In this document: positions 2,723 to 51,830 of the stretch, in pieces
Position numbering within the stretch: position 1 is the first letter of the stretch
Layout: each line of letters begins with the position of its first letter
The notes under the pieces: model-generated
What the model saw: only the letters and a program-made list of their open reading frames with translations
Told to the model about the DNA's origin: nothing
Databases searched by the model: none
Position numbers and translations under genes: made by a program
Assembly: GCA_050942825.1 (NCBI GenBank)
Contig: JBMNOA010000002.1
Coordinates: forward strand, 4,993 to 68,992
From: Bacillota bacterium
Lineage (GTDB): Bacteria > Bacillota > Dehalobacteriia > UBA4068
Direction of reading: 5' to 3'
Length of the DNA: 64,000 bases

Positions 2723-5700
2723 TTGTTGGATGTCAGCAATTTTGATAGAATGAGAATTGGTCTGTCTTCGCCAGAACAGATCGAGGAATGGTCTCATGGT
2801 GAAGTGAAAAAACCGGAAACAATCAATTACCGCACACTAAAACCTGAACGTGATGGGCTTTTTTGTGAAAGGATCTTCGGTCCCACCAGAGACTGGGAAT
2901 GCCATTGCGGTAAATATAAACGTGTGCGTTATAAAGGTATAATTTGTGATCGCTGCGGTGTTGAGGTAACGAGAGCTAAAGTTCGCCGTGAGCGTTTGGG
3001 TCATATCAAATTGGCTACTCCTGTGTCACATATTTGGTATTTTAAAGGCATACCAAGCAGGATAGGCCTATTATTAGATATTTCTCCGCGCAATTTGGAA
3101 AAAGTTCTCTATTTTGTTTCCTATATTGTTCTGGATCCGGGTGAAACCTCTCTTTCACCTATGCAATTGCTCACTGAGACGGAATATAGAGAAGCTAGAG
3201 ATAAATACGGTGATAGCTTTACAGCAGGCATGGGCGCCGAAGCTATAAGAAAAATGCTCATGAGTCTGGATTTGCCTAAATTGGCTGATGAATTACGTCA
3301 GGAATTAAAAGAAGTAAGCGGACAGAGGAAAATTAGAGCGATCCGCCGTTTAGAAGTGGTTGAGGCATTTTTGATGTCCGGTAATAAACCGGAATGGATG
3401 ATTTTGAGCGTTCTGCCGGTTATTCCGCCGGAATTGCGTCCTATGGTTCAATTGGATGGCGGACGTTTTGCTACCTCTGATCTTAATGACCTTTATCGTA
3501 GAGTTATCAACCGCAATAATCGCCTCAAACGTTTATTGGATTTGGGCGCTCCTGATATTATTGTCAGAAATGAAAAAAGAATGTTGCAGGAGGCAGTAGA
3601 TGCCCTTATTGATAACGGCCGCCGCGGCCGCCCTGTGACAGGGCCGGGCAACCGTCCTTTGAAATCTCTTTCCGATATGTTGAAAGGTAAACAAGGCCGT
3701 TTCCGTCAGAACTTGTTGGGTAAAAGGGTCGATTATTCTGGACGTTCGGTTATTGTTGTTGGACCGGAACTGAAATTTCATCAATGCGGATTGCCTAAAG
3801 AAATGGCTTTAGAGTTATTTAAGCCTTTTGTGATGAAACGCTTGGTGCATGATGGCCATGCGCATAATATCAAAAATGCTAAAAGAATGGTAGAGCGTGT
3901 GCGCCCTGAGGTTTGGGATGTTTTGGAAGATGTGATTCGCGATCATCCGGTTTTGTTGAACCGCGCACCAACCCTGCACCGTTTGGGGATTCAGGCTTTT
4001 GAACCAGTTTTGGTTGAAGGCCGTGCCCTGCAGATCCATCCTTTGGTTTGTACGGCATATAACGCTGACTTTGATGGTGACCAAATGGCAGTACACGTTC
4101 CTCTTTCTGCCGAGGCGCAGGCAGAGGCCAGAGTGTTGATGCTTTCTTCTCATAATATTTTGAATCCTAAGGATGGACGACCAGTAGCCACGCCAACACA
4201 GGATATGGTTTTGGGTTCCTACTATCTTACCATTACCAAAGAGGGCGATAAGGGTGAAGGAAAAGTTTTTGCTTCTTATAATGAGGCCCATCGTGCTTAT
4301 CTTAATGGTGATGTTTCCTTGCATGCCATGATTTATGTACCTAAGCCCGATAGATGGGATACTATCTGGCTTAGTCAAGATAAGGAAACCCCTTTTGAGC
4401 AATATGCTGATGGTCGTTATAAGCGTTTTGCTACTACAGTTGGACGTTTAATATTTAATTACGAAATTCCCATGCCAAGTGAAATGGGGTATTTCAATGA
4501 TTGCGTAAATAAAAAAGTACTTGGCCAGATTGTTGACCGTTGTTATCGCAGAATGGGAGTTTATGATACGGCAACCTTGTTAGACGGTATCAAATCTGTG
4601 GGCTTTAAATACTCTACTCAGGCCGGTATTACCATTGGTATTGACGATATTCAGGTTCCTGAAAGTAAAAAGGATATCATGAAAAATGCGGAAGATAAGA
4701 TCCTTGTGATCGAGGATCAATACCAAAATGGTTTAATTAATGAAAATGACCGATATTATAGTACCATTGAGGTTTGGAACAAAGCCACGGAAGATGTAAC
4801 AAAAGCCCTGATGAGCAATTTGGATAAATTTAATCCTATCTTCATGATGGCTAATTCCGGAGCTCGTGGTAATGTTCAACAAATCCGTCAATTGGCAGGC
4901 GCTAGGGGGTTGATGGCTGATCCCTCCGGTAGAATCATCGACTTGCCGATCAAAGCTAATTTCCGTGAAGGCTTGACAGTTTTAGAATTCTTCATCTCTA
5001 CTCACGGAGCCAGGAAAGGTTTGGCCGATACAGCTTTGCGTACTGCTGACTCTGGTTATTTGACACGACGTCTGGTTGATGTTGCTCAAGATGTGATCGT
5101 CAGGGAAGACGATTGTGGTGATAATCGTGGTATTTGGGTTGAAGAGATTAAAGATGTGGAAAATATCGCCGAACGTATTGAAGGCCGTGTTTTGAACACA
5201 GAAGTTGTTAATGTAGAAACGGGTGAAATTATTGCCCGATCCGGTCAATTTCTTGATTCCGATACGTCTATGGCTATAGAGAAATATTTGCATACTCGTC
5301 CGCAAGGAGAACGCAGGGTAAATATTCGTGCAGTTTTGACTTGCCGCACCCGACATGGTGTTTGCCGTAAATGTTATGGCCGCAATTTAGCCACTGGAGA
5401 AATAGTGGATATAGGCGAGGCAGTTGGTATTATTGCTGCTCAATCTATTGGTGAACCTGGTACCCAGCTGACGATGAGAACCTTCCACACCGGTGGTGTC
5501 GCCGGTGAGGATATTACTCAAGGTTTGCCGCGTGTTGAAGAGCTTTTTGAAGCACGTAAACCAAAAGGATTGGGTATAATTGCTGAGGCTGATGGTATTA
5601 TCTCTATAGGTGAAAACAAGGGCCGTCGTGAAGTGCTCATCAAAGGTGAAGGGGAAAATGCTGCTCAGATATTGGCAGAGTATCATGTTTCTTATGGCTC

Positions 5701-6367
5701 TACCCTAAAAGTCCATGATGGACAAAAAGTCGAGGCTGGAGATGAATTGACCGAAGGTTCCATAAATCCTCATGATTTATTGAATGTCAAAGGTATCCGC
5801 GGTGTACAAATGTACCTCTTGCGGGAAGTTCAAAGAGTATATCGCCTGCAAGGTGTTGATATCAATGATAAGCATATTGAGGTTATAGTAAGGCAAATGC
5901 TCAAAAAGGTCAAAGTGGAGGATGCCGGCAATACCAGGCTTTTGCCCGGATCTTTGGTTGATGTGTTTGAATTTGATCAGGTCAATGAAGATGCGATAGC
6001 CGAAGGTAAGGAACCGGCTACCGGTAAACCAGTTCTTTTGGGTATTACCAAAGCTTCTTTAGCTACTGATTCTTTCCTCTCTGCAGCCTCCTTCCAGGAA
6101 ACTACCAGAGTTTTAACTGATGCGGCTATTAAAGGTAAAATAGATCCCTTGCTGGGTTTGAAAGAGAATGTTATTATTGGCAAACTTATTCCTGCCGGAA
6201 CAGGTCTTTCTCGTTATAATAATGTAATTTTGACTAATCCTGATGAAAATGTAAAGCCCGAGGAAGACTACCATAATAACGAAGTGAATGATGATTTTGA
6301 TGATGTTAGTTGCACAATGGCCCACCAGGATGCATTGGTAGGCTTGATGGATTTGGATGTTGATTAA
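2723..6367 (+). CDS. rpoC: DNA-directed RNA polymerase subunit beta'
   Basis: 1214 aa from a TTG start; N-terminal Zn-finger [23 protein letters not shown], catalytic NADFDGD motif; sits immediately after rpoB. Confidence 0.97.
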
Positions 6368-6380
6368 GTTATTAATAAAT

Positions 6381-6420
6381 CAAGCAAATACATGCTATTA
6401 TCAGGGCATGTATTTGCTTG
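6381..6420. promoter_or_regulatory. 15-bp perfect inverted-repeat stem-loop (CAAGCAAATACATGC/GCATGTATTTGCTTG, 10-nt loop) between rpoC and the ybxF-rpsL operon; no U-tract follows
   Basis: The two arms were read directly from the sequence; the downstream arm overlaps a TTGACA -35 hexamer. Confidence 0.6.
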
Positions 6421-6446
6421 ACATGTATAGAAAATAGTGATAAAAT
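6418..6446 (+). promoter_or_regulatory. Sigma-A-type promoter (TTGACA-17nt-TAAAAT) for the ybxF-rpsL-rpsG-fusA-tuf operon
   Basis: Hexamers and a 17-nt spacer read from the sequence, about 30 nt upstream of the ybxF-like start. Confidence 0.5.
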
Positions 6447-6474
6447 ATTCTGGACTGCTATCTTGGGAGGGTTT

Positions 6475-6726
6475 GTGTTGTATACCCATTACTTAGCCAG
6501 TACAAAAAAAACTGTCGGTATCAGACAAACTATGAAAGCAATTGAAAAAGGACTGGCAGATAAGGTTTTTATTGCTAAAGATGCCGAAAAACGTGTGGTT
6601 TTGCCTGTAATCAATGCTTGCCAAAACAAAGGTATTTCCATAGTTGAAGTGGAAACGATGTCAGAGCTAGGAAAGGCCTGCTCTGTACAAGTTTTGACAG
6701 CTGTTGCGGCTTGTTTGAAAGAATAA
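6475..6726 (+). CDS. ybxF: Ribosome-associated L7Ae-family protein (YbxF-like)
   Basis: GTG start 6 nt after a GGGAGG RBS; ~83 aa matching the L7Ae/YbxF fold (KKTVGIRQTMKAIEKG...MSELGKACSV); located between rpoC and rpsL as in Bacillus. Confidence 0.8.
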   Translation: MLYTHYLASTKKTVGIRQTMKAIEKGLADKVFIAKDAEKRVVLPVINACQNKGISIVEVETMSELGKACSVQVLTAVAACLKE

Positions 6727-7199: not shown

Positions 7200-7670
7200 A
7201 TGCCAAGGCGTGGCAATGTAGCAAAAATAGAAATTTTACCGGATCCGGTATACAATAGCATAGTTCTGACAAAATTTATCAACCAAATTATGTTGGATGG
7301 TAAAAAGGGCGTAGCTGAGTCTATCGTTTATGGTGCATTTGATATTATACGTGATAAATTAAGCAAGGACCCCATGGAAGTTTTTGATGAAGCTATGAAA
7401 AATGTTATGCCGGTTTTAGAAGTTAAAGCTCGTCGTGTTGGTGGTGCCAACTATCAGGTTCCTGTAGAAGTTCGTGCAGAAAGACGGCAAGCATTAGCTA
7501 TTCGCTGGCTGGTTATGTTTTCTAGAAAAAGAGCTGGCAAATCAATGCAAGAAAAACTAGCTGCCGAATTAATGGATGCAGCTAATAATATTGGTGCTTC
7601 TGTTAAAAAACGTGAAGACACACATAAAATGGCTGAAGCTAATAAAGCTTTTGCTCATTATCGTTGGTAG
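7200..7670 (+). CDS. rpsG: 30S ribosomal protein S7
   Basis: 156 aa; MPRRG...VYNS...; conserved position. Confidence 0.97.
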
Positions 7671-7699
7671 TAAAAAAAGTAAATTACACGGAGGTTTTT

Positions 7700-9775
7700 A
7701 TGCCCAGGCGATTCCCTTTGGAAAAGGTAAGAAATATTGGTATTATGGCTCATATTGATGCCGGTAAAACAACTACGACTGAACGTATTCTTTTTTATAC
7801 TGGTCGTATTCACCGCCCAGGTGAAGTCCATGATGGCGCTGCCACCATGGATTTTATGGTGCAAGAGCAGGAAAGAGGTATCACAATTGCCTCTGCTGCG
7901 ACTACTTGCTTTTGGCGCAATCATCGTATTAATATTATTGACACACCCGGCCACGTTGACTTCACTGTAGAGGTCGAACGCTCTTTACGCGTATTGGACG
8001 GAGCAGTAGCCGTTTTTTGTTCTGTTGGTGGTGTTGAACCTCAGTCGGAGACCGTTTGGCGTCAGGCCGACCGTTATGGTGTACCCAGAATAGCTTATAT
8101 AAACAAAATGGATAGGGTCGGTGCGGATTTTTTCCGTGGCATGAGTATGATGAAAGATCGTTTGGGTGCTAATCCGATTGCTCTTCAATTGCCTATTGGC
8201 AGCGAAGAAAACTTCCATGGGATTATTGATCTCATAAAAATGGAAGCTAATATCTATTTGGATAGTGAAGGTAAGCAGATTGATATTCTTCCTATCCCTG
8301 ACAACATGATGGAGGATGCTCAGATTTACAGAGATAAGATTATCGAAGCTATTTCTGAACATGATGAAGAATTGGAATTAAAATATCTTGAGGGTGAAGA
8401 GTTTACACAGCAAGAAATTATAGCCGGCGTCAGAAAAGCTACTCTTGCTAATGCCTTTACCCCTGTTTTGTGTGGTTCCTCCTTTAAAAACAAGGGTGTT
8501 CAGCAATTGATGGATGCTATCATCGATTATCTTCCTTCTCCTATTGATGTTCCTGCCATCAAAGGAGTGAATGAAGATGGAGAAGAAGTCGAGAGAAAGT
8601 CTTCCGATGAGGAACCTTTTGCTGCCTTGGCTTTTAAAGTTGTGTCAGATCCTTATGTAGGTAAATTGACCTTCTTTAGAGTCTATTCTGGTGTTTTAAA
8701 AAGCGGTTCTTATATTTACAATAGCACAAAAGGCAAAAGAGAAAGGATTGGACGTATCCTGCAGATGCATGCTAATCACCGTGAAGAGATACAAGAAGCT
8801 TTTGCGGGTGATATCTTGGCTGCTGTTGGTCTTAAAGATACAACCACAGGAGACACGCTTTGCAATGAAGGCGATTTGGTGATCTTAGAATCTATGGATT
8901 TTCCCGATCCCGTTATCGATGTAGCTATAGAGCCAAAAACTACTGCTGATCAGGAAAAAATGGGTATTGCTTTGCAAAAGCTGTCTGAGGAGGATCCCAC
9001 TTTTAAAGTCAGAACTGATGCCGAAACCGGCCAGGTTTTGATAGCCGGTATGGGTGAGCTGCATCTGGAAATCATTGTTGACCGTTTGTTGCGTGAATTC
9101 AGAGTCGATGCCAATGTAGGTAAACCGCAGGTTGCGTATAAAGAAACCATACGTAAGCCCAGCAAAGGCGTGGGTAAATTTGTTCGTCAATCTGGTGGTC
9201 ATGGCCAATACGGTCATTGCGTGGTGGAATTTGAGCCGCAAGAACCAGGCACAGGATTTGTGTTCGAAAACAAGATTGTCGGCGGTGTGATTCCTAAAGA
9301 ATATATAGCACCTGTAGAGGCTGGTATCAAAGAGGCTATGGAAAACGGTATTATGGCAGGTTATCCTGTTGTGGATATCAAAGCAACTTTAGTTGATGGC
9401 TCTTACCATGAAGTGGATTCTTCAGAAGTTGCCTTCAAAGTTGCAGGTTCCCTAGCCTTCAAAGATGGTATGGCAAAAGCCAGTCCCGTTATTTTAGAAC
9501 CTATCTTTAAATTGGAAGTTGTTGTTCCTGATGAATATATGGGTGATGTTATCGGCGATTTGAACTCTCGCCGCGGCAAGATAGAAGGTATGGAGCCGAG
9601 AAATGGCTTGCAGACCATCAGGGGTTATGTTCCTCTGCTGGAAATGTTTGGATATGCTACTGATTTGCGTTCAAAAACGCAAGGCCGAGGCACTTATGTA
9701 ATGCAATTCTCCCATTATGATGAGGTGCCGAAAGGTATTGCCGAAAATATTGCCAATAAAAAGCAGAAAGCATAA
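7700..9775 (+). CDS. fusA: Elongation factor G
   Basis: ATG at 7700 after a GGAGG RBS (the ORF-track start at 7664 is an upstream in-frame extension); G-domain [21 protein letters not shown]. Confidence 0.96.
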
Positions 9776-9843: not shown

Positions 9844-11046
9844 ATGTCGAAACAAAAATTTGAGAGAACGAAGCCACACGTCAATATAGGTACAATTGGT
9901 CACGTAGACCATGGTAAAACGACCTTAACAGCGGCAATCACATTGTGCTTGTCCAAAGAAGGCGGTGCGGAAGTAAAAGCATATGATCAAATCGACGCAG
10001 CACCGGAAGAAAAAGCCCGTGGGATCACGATCAATACATCACATGTGGAATATGAAACAGCAAATCGGCACTATGCACATGTTGACTGTCCTGGTCACGC
10101 CGACTATGTTAAAAACATGATCACTGGTGCAGCACAAATGGACGGTGCAATCCTTGTTGTAAGTGCAGCAGACGGCCCGATGCCACAAACAAGAGAGCAT
10201 ATCTTGTTAGCACGGCAAGTAGGAGTACCTTATATCGTGGTATTTATGAATAAAGCAGACCAAGTAGACGATGCAGAGCTGCTTGAGTTGGTAGAAATGG
10301 AAATCAGGGAATTGTTGTCCGAGTATAATTTTCCGGGAGACGATACCCCTATCATTGCCGGATCAGCGCTTAAAGCCTTGCAATGCGGCTGTGGCGGCAA
10401 AGATTGCCCAGATTGCATGGCAATATGGAAATTAATGGATGCCGTAGATAGCTATATTCCTTCTCCTGAACGCGATAAAGATAAACCTTTCTTAATGCCG
10501 ATTGAAGACGTTTTCACGATCACAGGACGTGGTACAGTTGTAACAGGTCGTGTGGAAAGAGGACAAGTAAAAGTAGGAGATACTGTCCAAATAGTAGGAT
10601 TGGATGAAGAAAGCAAATCCACAGTAGTAACAGGCGTAGAAATGTTTAGAAAACTATTGGATTATGCAGAAGCCGGCGACAATATAGGTTGCTTGCTGAG
10701 AGGCGTGGAACGTAAAGAGGTAGAAAGAGGTCAAGTATTGGCCAAACCGAACAGCATCAACCCTTATACCAAATTCCAAGGCGAAGTATATGTGTTGACC
10801 AAAGAAGAAGGCGGTCGTCATACACCGTTCTTCAATGGTTACAGACCACAATTCTATTTCAGAACAACGGACGTAACCGGTGTAGCACATTTGCCGGAAG
10901 GCGTAGAAATGGTGATGCCGGGAGACAATATCCGTATGGATATCGAATTGATCACACCGATTGCTATTGAAGAAGGTTTGCGTTTTGCTATTCGTGAGGG
11001 TGGCAGAACTGTGGGCGCCGGTGTTGTTACAGCAGTTATAGAATAA
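9844..11046 (+). CDS. tuf: Elongation factor Tu, carrying an unusual Cys-rich insertion ([13 protein letters not shown]) in domain 1
   Basis: 400 aa; [22 protein letters not shown] motifs; insertion codons lie at about 10381-10419. Confidence 0.96.
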
Positions 11047-11097: not shown

Positions 11098-11209
11098 ATA
11101 TATAAATTGGACTGCGATGAAGCGGGAGGTTGCCACTTATGAGGACATAGTGGGTTTTTCCGTGGAGAATGTCCGTAAAATATGCGGGCGAAAAGGAGGT
11201 AAGTAAATA

Positions 11210-11518
11210 ATGGGTAGACAAAAAATTCGTATCAGACTTAAATCTTATGACCATAAACTTTTGGATCAATCGGCAGTAAAAATAGTGGAAACAGCGACGA
11301 GGTCGGGTGCTTCGGTATCGGGACCTATTCCGCTCCCTACCGAAAAAAATATCTACACTATCTTGCGTTCACCCCATGTGAATAAGGATTCCCGGGAACA
11401 ATTTGAAATGAGAACTCACAAGCGCCTCATTGATATAATCGATCCCACACCTAAAACTATGGATTCTCTGATCCGCATGGATTTACCAGCCGGAGTGGAT
11501 ATCGAGATCAAATTATAG
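11210..11518 (+). CDS. rpsJ: 30S ribosomal protein S10
   Basis: 102 aa; [21 protein letters not shown]. Confidence 0.97.
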
Positions 11519-17729: not shown

Positions 17730-17915
17730 GTGGCTAAAACTTCTATGTTAGTGAAGCAAAAACGCACACCCAAATTTAGGGTTAGAGGATATAATCGCTG
17801 CAGTATTTGCGGTAGGCCCCATGCTTATATGCGCAAATTCGGTATTTGCCGTATTTGTTTCCGTGAGCTGGCCTATAAAGGAGAAATCCCCGGTGTTACC
17901 AAATCTAGTTGGTAA
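17730..17915 (+). CDS. rpsN: 30S ribosomal protein S14, zinc-binding type Z
   Basis: 61 aa; [20 protein letters not shown] (Cys4). Confidence 0.96.
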
Positions 17916-23217: not shown

Positions 23218-23331
23218 ATGAAAGTCAGAGCTTCTGTTAAACCCATCTGTGAAAAATGTAAAATTATTAAAAGACGTGGTAAAGTAATGGTTATTTGCCG
23301 TAATACCAAGCATAAACAAACCCAAGGCTAA
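23218..23331 (+). CDS. rpmJ: 50S ribosomal protein L36 (Zn-ribbon form)
   Basis: Hand-translated 37 aa [37 protein letters not shown]; AAGGAGG RBS; missed by the >=60-aa ORF track. Confidence 0.93.
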
Positions 23332-49619: not shown

Positions 49620-49694
49620 GGGCCTATAGCTCAGCGGTAGAGCCACCGGCTCATAACCGGTCGGTCCCTGGTTCGATCCCAGGTGGGCCCACCA
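49620..49694 (+). tRNA. tRNA with anticodon CAT (elongator tRNA-Met or lysidine-modified tRNA-Ile2; not an initiator), CCA-encoded
   Basis: Cloverleaf folded by hand: 7-bp acceptor GGGCCTA/TGGGCCC, D-arm GCTCAGCGGTAGAGC, anticodon stem ACCGG/CCGGT with loop CTCATAA, T-arm CCTGGTTCGATCCCAGG, then ACCA; G1-C72 is paired and the anticodon stem lacks GGG/CCC, so it is not tRNA-fMet. Confidence 0.9.
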
Positions 49695-51466: not shown

Positions 51467-51830
51467 TTATCCGAGTAAGACGAATGAACGCAGGCAGAGT
51501 GCCGAAAGGCCCTGTCTGAGGAAAGTCCGGGCTCCATAGGGCAAAGTGCTGGCTAACGGCCAGTGAGGGCGACCTTAAGGATAGTGCCACAGAAATGCAA
51601 ACCGCCTCCGCTTTTATTGGGGGTAAGGATGGAACGGTGCGGTAAGAGCGCACCAGCAATCAGGTGACTGATTGGCTAGGTAAACCCCACTTGGAGCAAG
51701 ACCGAAAAGGAAAATATCAGGGCTGCCCGTCCTTTTTTCTGGGTTAGGTTGCTAAAGACTTCTGGCAACAGATGTCGTAGATAGATGTTCATTTATTACA
51801 GAACTCGGCTTACAGACTTGCTCGGATCAG
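51467..51830 (+). ncRNA. rnpB: RNase P RNA, bacterial type A
   Basis: Universally conserved GGAAAGTCCGGGCTCCATAGGGCA, GGTGCGGTAAGAGCGCACC and GGTAAACCCCACTTGGAGCAAG blocks; P1 helix CCGAGTAAG (51471-51479) pairs with CTTGCTCGG (51817-51825); the ends are approximate (+/-10 nt). Confidence 0.9.

What the first reader, a model, noticed from the sequence alone, without database searches (positions are those of the whole stretch)
10381..10420. EF-Tu carries a Cys-rich insertion ([13 protein letters not shown]) in domain 1
Most bacterial EF-Tu sequences (E. coli and B. subtilis as recalled: ...[22 protein letters not shown]...) have a cysteine-free helix after ALKAL. Here that segment is replaced by [28 protein letters not shown], about 5 residues longer with 4-5 Cys in a C-x-C-x4-C-x2-C arrangement. 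That arrangement looks like a metal (Zn) binding knuckle. A metal-binding EF-Tu is not, to my knowledge, a textbook feature. It could be lineage-specific, could link translation to metal or redox status, or could be a sequencing artefact. The reading frame is intact on both sides, which argues against an artefact.
Basis: partly seen in the sequence, partly recalled or inferred. Interest (0 to 1): 0.65.

Follow-up and report, generated by a model that had tools for sequence, protein, structure and literature searches.

The report
EF-Tu with conserved four-cysteine knuckle
The translation factor EF-Tu encoded here really does carry a four-cysteine loop that probably binds a metal; it is not an error or a one-off, being the normal form of EF-Tu in many mostly anaerobic or heat-loving bacteria, yet no structure and no paper I could find describes it.

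Summary
Residues 180-192 (nt 10381-10419) read [13 protein letters not shown]. Compared with E. coli EF-Tu, this is a 5-residue insertion plus two substitutions, five residues after the G5 guanine-recognition motif (SAL).

It is neither an artefact nor a narrow lineage quirk. The four Cys (C181, C183, C188, C191) are kept in 119 of 120 nearest homologues. They are also kept in 120 of 120 homologues of a Dehalococcoidia EF-Tu that is only 72% identical. The hits came from Bacillota, Chloroflexota, Aquificota, Thermodesulfobacteriota, Armatimonadota, Omnitrophota and others.

Two AlphaFold models place the loop (182-191) between two helices with local pLDDT 82-92. No PDB EF-Tu has this loop. Ten literature searches found no description of it.

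The best reading is a structural Zn(Cys)4 knuckle, a "Cys-plus" EF-Tu analogous to zinc-binding ribosomal proteins. Metal binding is inferred, not shown. A redox or zinc-sensing role is possible but has no support here. I rate it a new variant of a known kind, of moderate interest.

The parts
9844..11046 (+). tuf, elongation factor Tu, 400 aa plus stop
   Evidence: ORF. NCBIfam TIGR00485 EF-Tu equivalog scores 747.6 bits against a cutoff of 522.4. Pfam finds GTP_EFTU, D2 and D3. PDB EF-Tu chains match at E down to 1e-214. Foldseek top hits are all EF-Tu.
10363..10371 (+). G5 guanine-recognition motif S174-A175-L176 (SAL), five residues upstream of the first Cys
   Evidence: Read directly from the sequence. 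It aligns with E. coli SAL at residues 174-176 in Met1 numbering. Its role as G5 rests on established knowledge of translational GTPases.
10381..10419 (+). Cys-rich loop Q180-M192 ([13 protein letters not shown]), the reported feature
   Evidence: It is a 5-residue insertion relative to E. coli. AlphaFold2 predicts helix 175-181, loop 182-191 and helix 192-204, with local pLDDT 82-92 in both models.
10384..10392 (+). First ligand pair C181-G-C183 (C-x-C)
   Evidence: Invariant in 239/240 unselected homologues. TGC and TGT codons are mixed about 60/40 across 120 species, so the residue is conserved while the synonymous position varies.
10405..10416 (+). Second ligand pair C188-P-D-C191 (C-x-x-C) at the N-terminus of the predicted helix 192-204
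   Evidence: Same conservation as the first pair. Most relatives read C-[PEQ]-x-C-[GK], which resembles a rubredoxin-type knuckle.
7664..9775 (+). fusA (EF-G) upstream; str-operon context
   Evidence: The ORF translation is EF-G-like. The order fusA-tuf-rpsJ is the canonical arrangement.
11109..11191 (+). S10-Clostridia ribosomal protein leader between tuf and rpsJ
   Evidence: Rfam RF03136, 59.1 bits against a gathering score of 35.1.

Best explanation
The gene is the organism's ordinary, essential EF-Tu. Its G domain carries a small Cys4 metal-binding knuckle, most likely Zn(Cys)4. This replaces the short loop that in E. coli joins the helix after the G5 (SAL) guanine-recognition motif to the next helix. 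C181 and C183 sit on an inserted turn. C188 and C191 sit at the start of the following helix. One metal ion bound by all four would staple the two helices together and stiffen the region just behind the nucleotide base pocket. This is a structural, stabilising role, analogous to the different Cys-free 10-residue insertion that Thermus EF-Tu carries at the same site. This 'Cys-plus' form is the standard EF-Tu of many mostly anaerobic and/or thermophilic bacteria across several phyla, and is ancient. It parallels the zinc-binding versus zinc-free forms of ribosomal proteins. Shown: presence of the motif, its conservation, its distribution, and the local secondary structure. Inferred: metal binding, zinc as the metal, and a structural role.
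For: (1) The four Cys are invariant in 119/120 nearest homologues (about 88-95% identical). The single exception is a 514-aa chimeric assembly. They are also invariant in 120/120 homologues of a Dehalococcoidia EF-Tu that is 72% identical to the window. Loop positions between the Cys vary: 39 and 15 distinct loop sequences in the two sets.
All 120 hits lie in tuf, from Bacillota, Chloroflexota, Aquificota, Thermodesulfobacteriota, Armatimonadota, Omnitrophota, TA06 and others.
(3) Cys-plus EF-Tus are 64-99% identical to each other outside the loop (median 74%). Their identity to Cys-free E. coli EF-Tu has the same median (74%), so this is an old state and not a recent clade. Cys codons are synonymously scrambled.
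(4) The pattern C-G-C-G-x3-C-x-x-C-(G) mirrors the beta' zinc site encoded in the same window, CHCG-x12-CDRCG. It also mirrors the C-x-C / C-x-x-C zinc centre of Hsp33 (10.1101/492876).
(5) Two AlphaFold2 runs agree on helix 175-181, loop 182-191 and helix 192-204 at pLDDT 82-92.
(6) The site tolerates insertions. T. thermophilus has [13 protein letters not shown] there (1aip_A residues 173-229).
(7) The organism uses Cys-containing (zinc-type) S14 and L36.
(8) Some carriers are aerobes (Sulfobacillus). That fits redox-inert zinc better than an oxygen-labile cluster.
Against: There is no direct evidence of metal binding. The tools returned no model coordinates, so Cys-Cys geometry could not be measured, and AlphaFold2 does not model metals. 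Both models are poor overall (mean pLDDT 56 and 68). No Pfam zinc-finger family matches the loop above threshold: nothing for the window loop, and Sina_ZnF at E=0.044 (14.6 bits against a cutoff of 32) for the consensus loop. The four-residue spacer between the Cys pairs is short. The genome scan required the Cys by design and was capped, so it gives a lower bound and not a frequency. Record titles of MAGs may be mislabelled.
Confidence: 0.62

Rival explanations
1. The Cys4 site is a regulatory switch and not a passive staple. Oxidation of the zinc-thiolate centre, or zinc starvation, would release the metal, unfold the loop next to the G5 motif, and lower nucleotide binding or EF-Tu stability. 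Translation would then be throttled when an anaerobe meets oxygen or runs out of zinc.
For: Hsp33 has the same C-x-C plus C-x-x-C ligand arrangement. There, oxidation forms C232-C234 and C265-C268 disulfides and releases zinc. The loop begins five residues after G5 SAL. Most carriers come from anoxic habitats. EF-Tu is already known to be redox-regulated through another Cys in cyanobacteria (PDB 8yly/8ym3 titles; Yutthanasirikul 2016 in the reference list seen).
Against: Nothing here tests reactivity. Cys4 zinc sites in S14, L36 and beta' are purely structural. The motif persists in aerobic Sulfobacillus. No Cys-free backup tuf was seen: both Formimonas copies are Cys-plus, as are both copies in one Chloroflexia MAG (L003/L011).
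Confidence: 0.15
2. The four Cys bind iron and not zinc. This could be a rubredoxin-like Fe(Cys)4 site or a small Fe-S cluster, which would make EF-Tu an iron protein in anaerobes.
For: C-P-x-C-G is the classic rubredoxin knuckle and is the commonest form of the second pair. The last three Cys have the C-x4-C-x2-C spacing of plant-type [2Fe-2S] ferredoxins (from my own knowledge). Carriers are mostly iron-rich anaerobes.
Against: The fourth ligand is only one residue from the first, unlike any ferredoxin. The motif is kept in aerobic Sulfobacillus. An oxygen-labile cofactor in the most abundant cytosolic protein would be costly. No evidence here separates Fe from Zn.
Confidence: 0.1
3. No metal is bound. 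The Cys form one or two disulfides that staple the loop for thermostability, or the Cys are conserved for some other reason such as a modification or a partner contact.
For: Many carriers are thermophiles, including Moorella, Thermoanaerobacter, Thermosulfurimonas and Aquificota. Adjacent C-x-C and C-x-x-C pairs can form disulfides, as in oxidised Hsp33.
Against: The cytoplasm of strict anaerobes is reducing. Many carriers are mesophiles, such as Dehalococcoidia, Syntrophomonas and gut Firmicutes. The Gly-rich knuckle pattern is typical of metal sites.
Confidence: 0.06
4. Sequencing or assembly artefact, or a pseudogene.
For: None beyond the unusual appearance of the loop.
Against: The reading frame is intact across 400 codons. 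The identical protein is in NCBI, and independent metagenomes have 95%- and 91%-identical proteins with the same motif. There are hundreds of orthologues with the motif. The full-length EF-Tu score is above the curated cutoff.
Confidence: 0.01

Closest known systems
Canonical bacterial EF-Tu (E. coli TufA/TufB; PDB 1efc, 1dg1 and others)
   Same: The three-domain architecture, all G motifs, the str-operon context, and 76.6% identity outside the loop.
   Different: E. coli has [12 protein letters not shown] with no Cys at this site. The window has a 5-residue insertion and four Cys. None of the PDB EF-Tu chains listed by the two searches (60 shown of 61; 52) has the Cys loop.
Thermus thermophilus / T. 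aquaticus EF-Tu with a 10-residue G-domain insertion (PDB 1aip, 1eft, 1ttt)
   Same: An insertion at exactly the same site, between ALE and (E)W-x-x-KIWEL, in a thermophile. This shows the site tolerates extra structure.
   Different: The Thermus insertion ([13 protein letters not shown]) is longer, basic and Cys-free, so it cannot bind metal through thiolates.
Zinc-binding ('C+') versus zinc-free ('C-') forms of ribosomal proteins S14, L36, L31, L33, L28, S18
   Same: A translation-apparatus protein that exists in Cys4-containing and Cys-free versions across bacteria. The window's own S14 and L36 are the Cys-containing type. The paradigm is summarised in PMC13343924.
   Different: Ribosomal C- forms are often extra paralogues repressed by Zur. 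No Cys-free tuf paralogue or Zur box was found or tested here. Where two tuf copies were seen, both are Cys-plus.
C-x-C ... C-x-x-C zinc centres: RNA polymerase beta' N-terminal zinc site and the Hsp33 redox-switch domain
   Same: The same ligand pair types, with Gly after Cys. The window's rpoC reads CHCG-x12-CDRCG. Hsp33 uses C232, C234, C265 and C268.
   Different: The spacer between pairs is only 4 residues here, against 12 in beta' and 30 in Hsp33. There is no sequence homology. The resemblance is one of pattern only.
a/eIF2-gamma, an EF-Tu-like GTPase with a Cys4 zinc knuckle in its G domain (from my own knowledge; not tested here)
   Same: A translational GTPase of the EF-Tu superfamily that carries a small Cys4 knuckle as an insertion in domain I.
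   Different: As I recall, that knuckle is inserted near switch 1 and not after G5, and it is an archaeal/eukaryotic initiation factor. I did not align it here.
Redox-regulated cyanobacterial EF-Tu (Synechocystis / Synechococcus; PDB 8yly, 8ym3)
   Same: A precedent that EF-Tu activity can be controlled through cysteine oxidation (title; reference seen).
   Different: That regulation acts through the universally conserved Cys next to switch II (C82 here), not through a Cys4 loop. Those proteins have a Cys-free insertion at this site (alignment lengths).

Membership tests
Elongation factor Tu (TIGR00485) | Full-length match above the curated equivalog cutoff | tested here: met
   747.6 bits against a cutoff of 522.4, covering residues 1-400.
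Elongation factor Tu (TIGR00485) | Three domains: GTP_EFTU, domain 2, domain 3 | tested here: met
   PF00009 (E=3e-65), PF03144 and PF03143 all above their cutoffs.
Elongation factor Tu (TIGR00485) | G1-G5 nucleotide-binding motifs intact (GHVDHGKT, T in RGITI, DCPGH, NKxD, SAL) | tested here: met
   Read from the translation: GHVDHGKT 19-26, DCPGH 81-85, NKAD 136-139, SAL 174-176.
Elongation factor Tu (TIGR00485) | str-operon context (rpsL-rpsG-fusA-tuf-rpsJ) | tested here: met
   fusA lies upstream; the S10 leader and rpsJ lie downstream.
Structural Zn(Cys)4 knuckle | Four invariant Cys ligands arranged in two closely spaced pairs | tested here: met
   C-x-C-x4-C-x2-C in 239/240 unselected homologues.
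Structural Zn(Cys)4 knuckle | Knuckle-type turns (small residues or Gly after Cys; second pair at a helix N-terminus) | tested here: met
   C-G-C-G is invariant or nearly so. Gly follows Cys4 in 135/239 sequences. The predicted helix starts at residue 192, right after C191.
Structural Zn(Cys)4 knuckle | Tetrahedral S-gamma geometry able to hold one ion | not testable with these tools
   Structure prediction returns no coordinates (one search shows no model files).
Structural Zn(Cys)4 knuckle | Stoichiometric bound zinc | not testable with these tools
   Needs ICP-MS or a PAR assay on purified protein.
Structural Zn(Cys)4 knuckle | Match to a curated zinc-finger or zinc-ribbon family | tested here: not met
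   No Pfam hit for the window loop. The consensus loop gives only Sina_ZnF at E=0.044, 14.6 bits against a cutoff of 32.
Zur-controlled C+/C- paralogue pair | A Cys-free paralogue in the same genome | tested here: inconclusive
   There is only one tuf in the 64-kb window. The two Formimonas copies and the two copies in one Chloroflexia MAG are all Cys-plus. Whole genomes were not searchable.
Zur-controlled C+/C- paralogue pair | A Zur box upstream of the alternative copy | not tested
   No alternative copy was identified.
Hsp33-like zinc redox switch | C-x-C plus C-x-x-C zinc ligands | tested here: met
   Pattern comparison with C232/C234/C265/C268.
Hsp33-like zinc redox switch | Oxidant-induced zinc release with a change in function | not testable with these tools
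   Requires biochemistry.
Plant-type [2Fe-2S] ferredoxin motif | C-x4-C-x2-C plus a distant fourth Cys (about 29 residues away) | tested here: not met
   C183-x4-C188-x2-C191 fits the first part, but the remaining Cys (C181) is one residue away from C183, not distant.

The most novel reading that the evidence does not exclude
EF-Tu, usually the most abundant cytosolic protein, is a stoichiometric zinc (or iron) thiolate protein in a large part of the anaerobic bacterial world. If so, it would be the single largest pool of that metal in these cells. Its Cys4 centre, sitting next to the guanine pocket, would then act as an oxidant- or zinc-sensitive brake on translation. The Cys-free EF-Tu of textbook aerobes would be a derived form that lost an ancestral metal site, as happened with ribosomal proteins.
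Probability: 0.15. Interest if true: 0.8.

Novelty: new variant of a known kind. Interest (0 to 1): 0.5.

Why it matters
EF-Tu is among the best-studied proteins in biology, yet every solved structure matched in the PDB searches here is of a Cys-free form. If the Cys-plus form binds one zinc per molecule, the zinc budget of these bacteria would be dominated by one translation factor. This follows from my own knowledge: EF-Tu is present at roughly 10^5 copies per cell in E. coli, the same order as that cell's whole zinc quota. That would extend the idea of translation machinery as a zinc reservoir from ribosomal proteins to a soluble factor. It would also offer a simple route by which oxygen or zinc scarcity could slow translation in anaerobes. 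In addition, the motif gives a clean sequence marker (C-G-C-G-x3-C-x2-C after SALKAL) for tracing gains and losses of metal dependence across bacterial phyla. If the site is only a structural staple, it remains a useful example of two different solutions (a Cys4 knuckle versus the Thermus basic loop) at one insertion hot-spot.

Tried and rejected
1. Searching the 5.8-billion-protein database with only the 69-aa loop region returned 20 short fragments and wasted one of three searches. One fragment (P0001) did show KCGCGKRECPKCGKIW.
2. Ten full-text literature searches found nothing on a Cys-rich or zinc-binding bacterial EF-Tu. They covered EF-Tu with zinc, cysteine, insertion, zinc knuckle, CXXC and taxon names; the peptide strings themselves; and the Makarova C+/C- paper. 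The 2025 table in PMC11943819 lists one Zn-containing PDB entry under the EF-Tu COG without detail. PMC13351119, on EF-Tu sequence diversity, mentions neither cysteine nor zinc. PMC56895 is not held.
3. I ran AlphaFold2 twice, hoping to measure S-S distances. No coordinates are exposed, and global confidence was low because only close homologues may be submitted. I used only the local secondary structure and pLDDT.
4. Foldseek against the PDB only re-confirmed EF-Tu.
5. Pfam on the isolated loop gave nothing significant.
6. The look-up of encoding contigs for the exact protein returned no record.
7. I considered and rejected an artefact or frameshift, a pseudogene, and a RiPP-like modified peptide (no modification genes; canonical str operon).
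8. I did not build a rooted tree with many Cys-free sequences, because natural Cys-free EF-Tu sequences other than E. coli could not be fetched cheaply. Pairwise identities were used instead.

Full report
**What is there.** The window carries the classic rpoB-rpoC-(L7Ae-like)-rpsL-rpsG-fusA-tuf-rpsJ... arrangement. The ORF at 9844-11046 (+) encodes a 400-aa protein between EF-G (7664-9775) and S10 (11210-11518). An S10-Clostridia leader RNA lies at 11109-11191.

The protein is a genuine EF-Tu:
- NCBIfam TIGR00485 scores 747.6 bits against a cutoff of 522.4.
- Pfam finds GTP_EFTU, D2 and D3.
- PDB EF-Tu chains match at E down to 1e-214.
- Foldseek hits for the predicted model are all EF-Tu.

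The DNA at 10381-10419 reads caa tgc ggc tgt ggc ggc aaa gat tgc cca gat tgc atg, i.e. Q180[12 protein letters not shown]192. The four Cys are residues 181, 183, 188 and 191. The reported coordinates are right to within one base.

**Comparison with textbook EF-Tu.** I fetched an E. coli tuf gene and aligned it. E. coli reads [20 protein letters not shown]. The window reads [26 protein letters not shown].

The difference is a 5-residue insertion that brings Cys1 and Cys2. Cys3 and Cys4 replace the residues on either side of E. coli's 'EW'. The loop starts five residues after the G5 motif SAL (174-176), which in translational GTPases packs against the guanine base (established knowledge).

Thermus EF-Tu has a different, Cys-free 10-residue insertion at exactly this site. 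PDB 1aip_A residues 173-229 read [35 protein letters not shown]. The site is therefore an insertion hot-spot.

**Not an artefact and not rare.** The identical protein is already in NCBI as an EF-Tu of a 'Bacillota bacterium' MAG. The nearest named relatives, at about 90% identity, are Candidatus Formimonas warabiya and Dehalobacterium formicoaceticum.

| Homologue set (not selected for the motif) | Carry C-x-C-x4-C-x2-C | Distinct loop sequences |
|---|---|---|
| 120 best hits to the window EF-Tu | 119 | 39 |
| 120 best hits to a Dehalococcoidia EF-Tu (L016, 72% identical to the window) | 120 | 15 |

The one exception in the first set (P0022) is a 514-aa assembly with an internal duplication.

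By record title they include:
- Bacillota: Moorella/Neomoorella, Thermoanaerobacter, Thermovorax, Desulfotomaculum, Pelotomaculum, Desulforudis, Desulfosporosinus, Syntrophomonas, Dethiobacter, Sulfobacillus.
- Chloroflexota: many Dehalococcoidia, plus Chloroflexia and Ardenticatenia.
- Other lineages: Aquificota, Thermodesulfobacteriota (Thermosulfurimonas, Caldimicrobium), Armatimonadota, Omnitrophota, TA06, Eisenbacteria, Hydrothermales.
- Gut and rumen MAGs.

The family consensus is ALECGCGKR[DE]C[EQP]WCGKIWELMDAVD. This scan required the Cys by construction and was capped. It therefore gives a lower bound on spread, not a frequency. MAG labels can also be wrong.

**Age.** Outside the loop, Cys-plus EF-Tus are 64-99% identical to each other (median 74%). 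E. coli's Cys-free EF-Tu is 67-78% identical to them (median 74%). Of all Cys-plus pairs, 67% are more divergent than E. coli is from its closest Cys-plus relative. At each Cys codon, TGC and TGT are mixed about 60/40 across species.

The Cys-plus state therefore spans the deepest divergences of bacterial EF-Tu. The loop sequence is too similar across phyla for independent invention. The likely history is a single old origin with repeated loss, or some lateral spread. I could not root this.

One close relative's loop (P0022...NAPECKCIFELMDAVD) keeps only Cys4 and an extra fifth Cys. It looks like a decayed site.

**Structure.** Only window sequences and close homologues may be submitted, so both AlphaFold2 models are poor overall (mean pLDDT 56 and 68). 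They agree, however, on the segment 131-210, where pLDDT is 82-92. Both show helix 175-181, a non-regular loop 182-191 holding C183 and C188, and helix 192-204 starting right after C191.

Coordinates are not exposed, so I could not measure sulfur-sulfur distances. No PDB EF-Tu chain returned by these searches carries the loop. All 52 chains that match the consensus segment show a 5-residue gap or another insertion.

**Why a metal site is the best reading.** The evidence is as follows:
- Four invariant Cys lie in two tight pairs.
- Gly follows Cys (C-G-C-G, and C-x-x-C-G in most relatives).
- The second pair sits at a helix N-terminus.
- The variable positions between the ligands are charged. 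These features are those of Cys4 knuckles.
- The window's own RNA polymerase beta' has [20 protein letters not shown]. This is the well-known beta' zinc site, with the same C-x-C-G...C-x-x-C-G pattern.
- Hsp33 binds zinc through C232, C234, C265 and C268.
- The organism's S14 (CSICG...CRIC) and L36 (CEKC...C...H) are the Cys-containing forms.
- Aerobic Sulfobacillus keeps the motif, which fits zinc better than an oxygen-labile cofactor.

Against this, no curated zinc-finger family matches the loop. The 4-residue spacer is short. Nothing here measures metal.

**Mechanism proposed.** One ion bound by C181/C183/C188/C191 ties the helix that follows G5 to the next helix. This would rigidify the back of the guanine pocket. 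It is a structural staple, functionally comparable to the Thermus insertion.
- Shown: the motif, its conservation, its distribution, and the local secondary structure.
- Inferred: metal binding (I estimate about 0.7-0.75), zinc as the metal, and a structural as opposed to a regulatory role.

**Rivals:**
- A redox or zinc-sensing switch like Hsp33 (0.15).
- An iron site or Fe-S site (0.10). The C-P-x-C-G knuckle is rubredoxin-like. C183-x4-C188-x2-C191 resembles the plant ferredoxin spacing, but the fourth Cys is adjacent and not distant.
- Disulfides or some other non-metal role (0.06).
- An artefact (0.01 or less).

**Novelty.** The sequences are abundant in public databases and annotated simply as EF-Tu. 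Ten full-text searches, including searches for the peptide strings themselves, found no paper describing a Cys4 or zinc-binding bacterial EF-Tu. The library lacks most subscription-journal papers, so an older description cannot be excluded.

I classify it as a new variant of a known kind: an ordinary EF-Tu with a widespread, apparently uncharacterised, probable metal knuckle. The window's copy is a typical member, not an outlier. Its only peculiarity is C-P-D-C-M where most relatives have C-x-W-C-G.

**Verdict.** Interest is moderate at 0.5. The finding would not overturn anything. It does point to a simple, testable and overlooked property of a central protein, with consequences for cellular zinc budgets if it is true.

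Noticed in passing
window 2900-2956 (+), within rpoC 2723-6367: RNA polymerase beta' N-terminal zinc-site motif [19 protein letters not shown] (residues 60-78 of the mechanical ORF). It has the same C-x-C-G...C-x-x-C-G ligand pattern as the EF-Tu loop, with a 12-residue spacer.
   Followed up: partly
window 17730-17915 (+) and 23218-23331 (+): S14 is the short 61-aa type with CSICG...CRIC. L36 reads [37 protein letters not shown]. Both are the Cys-containing (zinc-type) forms, so this organism's translation apparatus is generally 'Cys-plus'.
   Followed up: partly
window 11109-11191 (+): S10-Clostridia ribosomal protein leader (Rfam RF03136, 59.1 bits) between tuf and rpsJ. It supports a Clostridia-type Bacillota origin for the window.
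   Followed up: no
window 6418-6726 (+): A small ORF between rpoC and rpsL whose C-terminal part (MKAIEKGLADKVFIAKDAEKRV...ELGKACSVQV) looks like the L7Ae/YbxF-family protein commonly found at this position in Firmicutes. The assignment is from memory and was not tested.
   Followed up: no
window 51472-51828 (+) and 49620-49691 (+): Bacterial RNase P RNA class A (303.5 bits) and one tRNA.
   Followed up: no
P0022 (514 aa, ENA metagenome contig of 2389 nt): An EF-Tu with an internal duplication of the segment [12 protein letters not shown]...GRVERGMVK. It has two Cys-poor loops (EYVMNGGDDVANAPECKCIFEL and EALTAGKNATEAPECKCIFEL) that keep only the fourth Cys and an extra fifth Cys. It is either a mis-assembly of two related strains or a real duplication. 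The loops look like a decayed Cys4 site.
   Followed up: partly
homologues P0030, P0050, P0066 and others (62 of 239 loops): Many relatives have a fifth Cys two residues after Cys4 (C-P-N-C-K-C-I-W). It is absent from the window protein and is not conserved across phyla. Its role is unknown.
   Followed up: no
L019 6262-6324 (-) (MAG 'delta proteobacterium' CAWGWZ010000028.1): The tuf reading frame breaks just after the Cys loop (...CQWCSGIWKLIGCGGQFYSGAGAGD*). This is probably a frameshift error in the long-read MAG, or a pseudogene.
   Followed up: no
P0233; L104, L004: Some Cys-plus bacterial EF-Tus sit in bins labelled 'Candidatus Bathyarchaeota archaeon', 'Candidatus Saccharibacteria' or 'Gemmatimonadota'. 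P0233 is 88% identical to a Dehalococcoidia EF-Tu, so at least that label probably reflects binning contamination. Phylum counts from record titles should be treated with care.
   Followed up: no
window tuf residues 136-139 (nt 10249-10260): The G4 motif is NKAD, whereas E. coli has NKCD. The nucleotide-pocket Cys137 of E. coli is therefore absent here, while the loop Cys are present.
   Followed up: no
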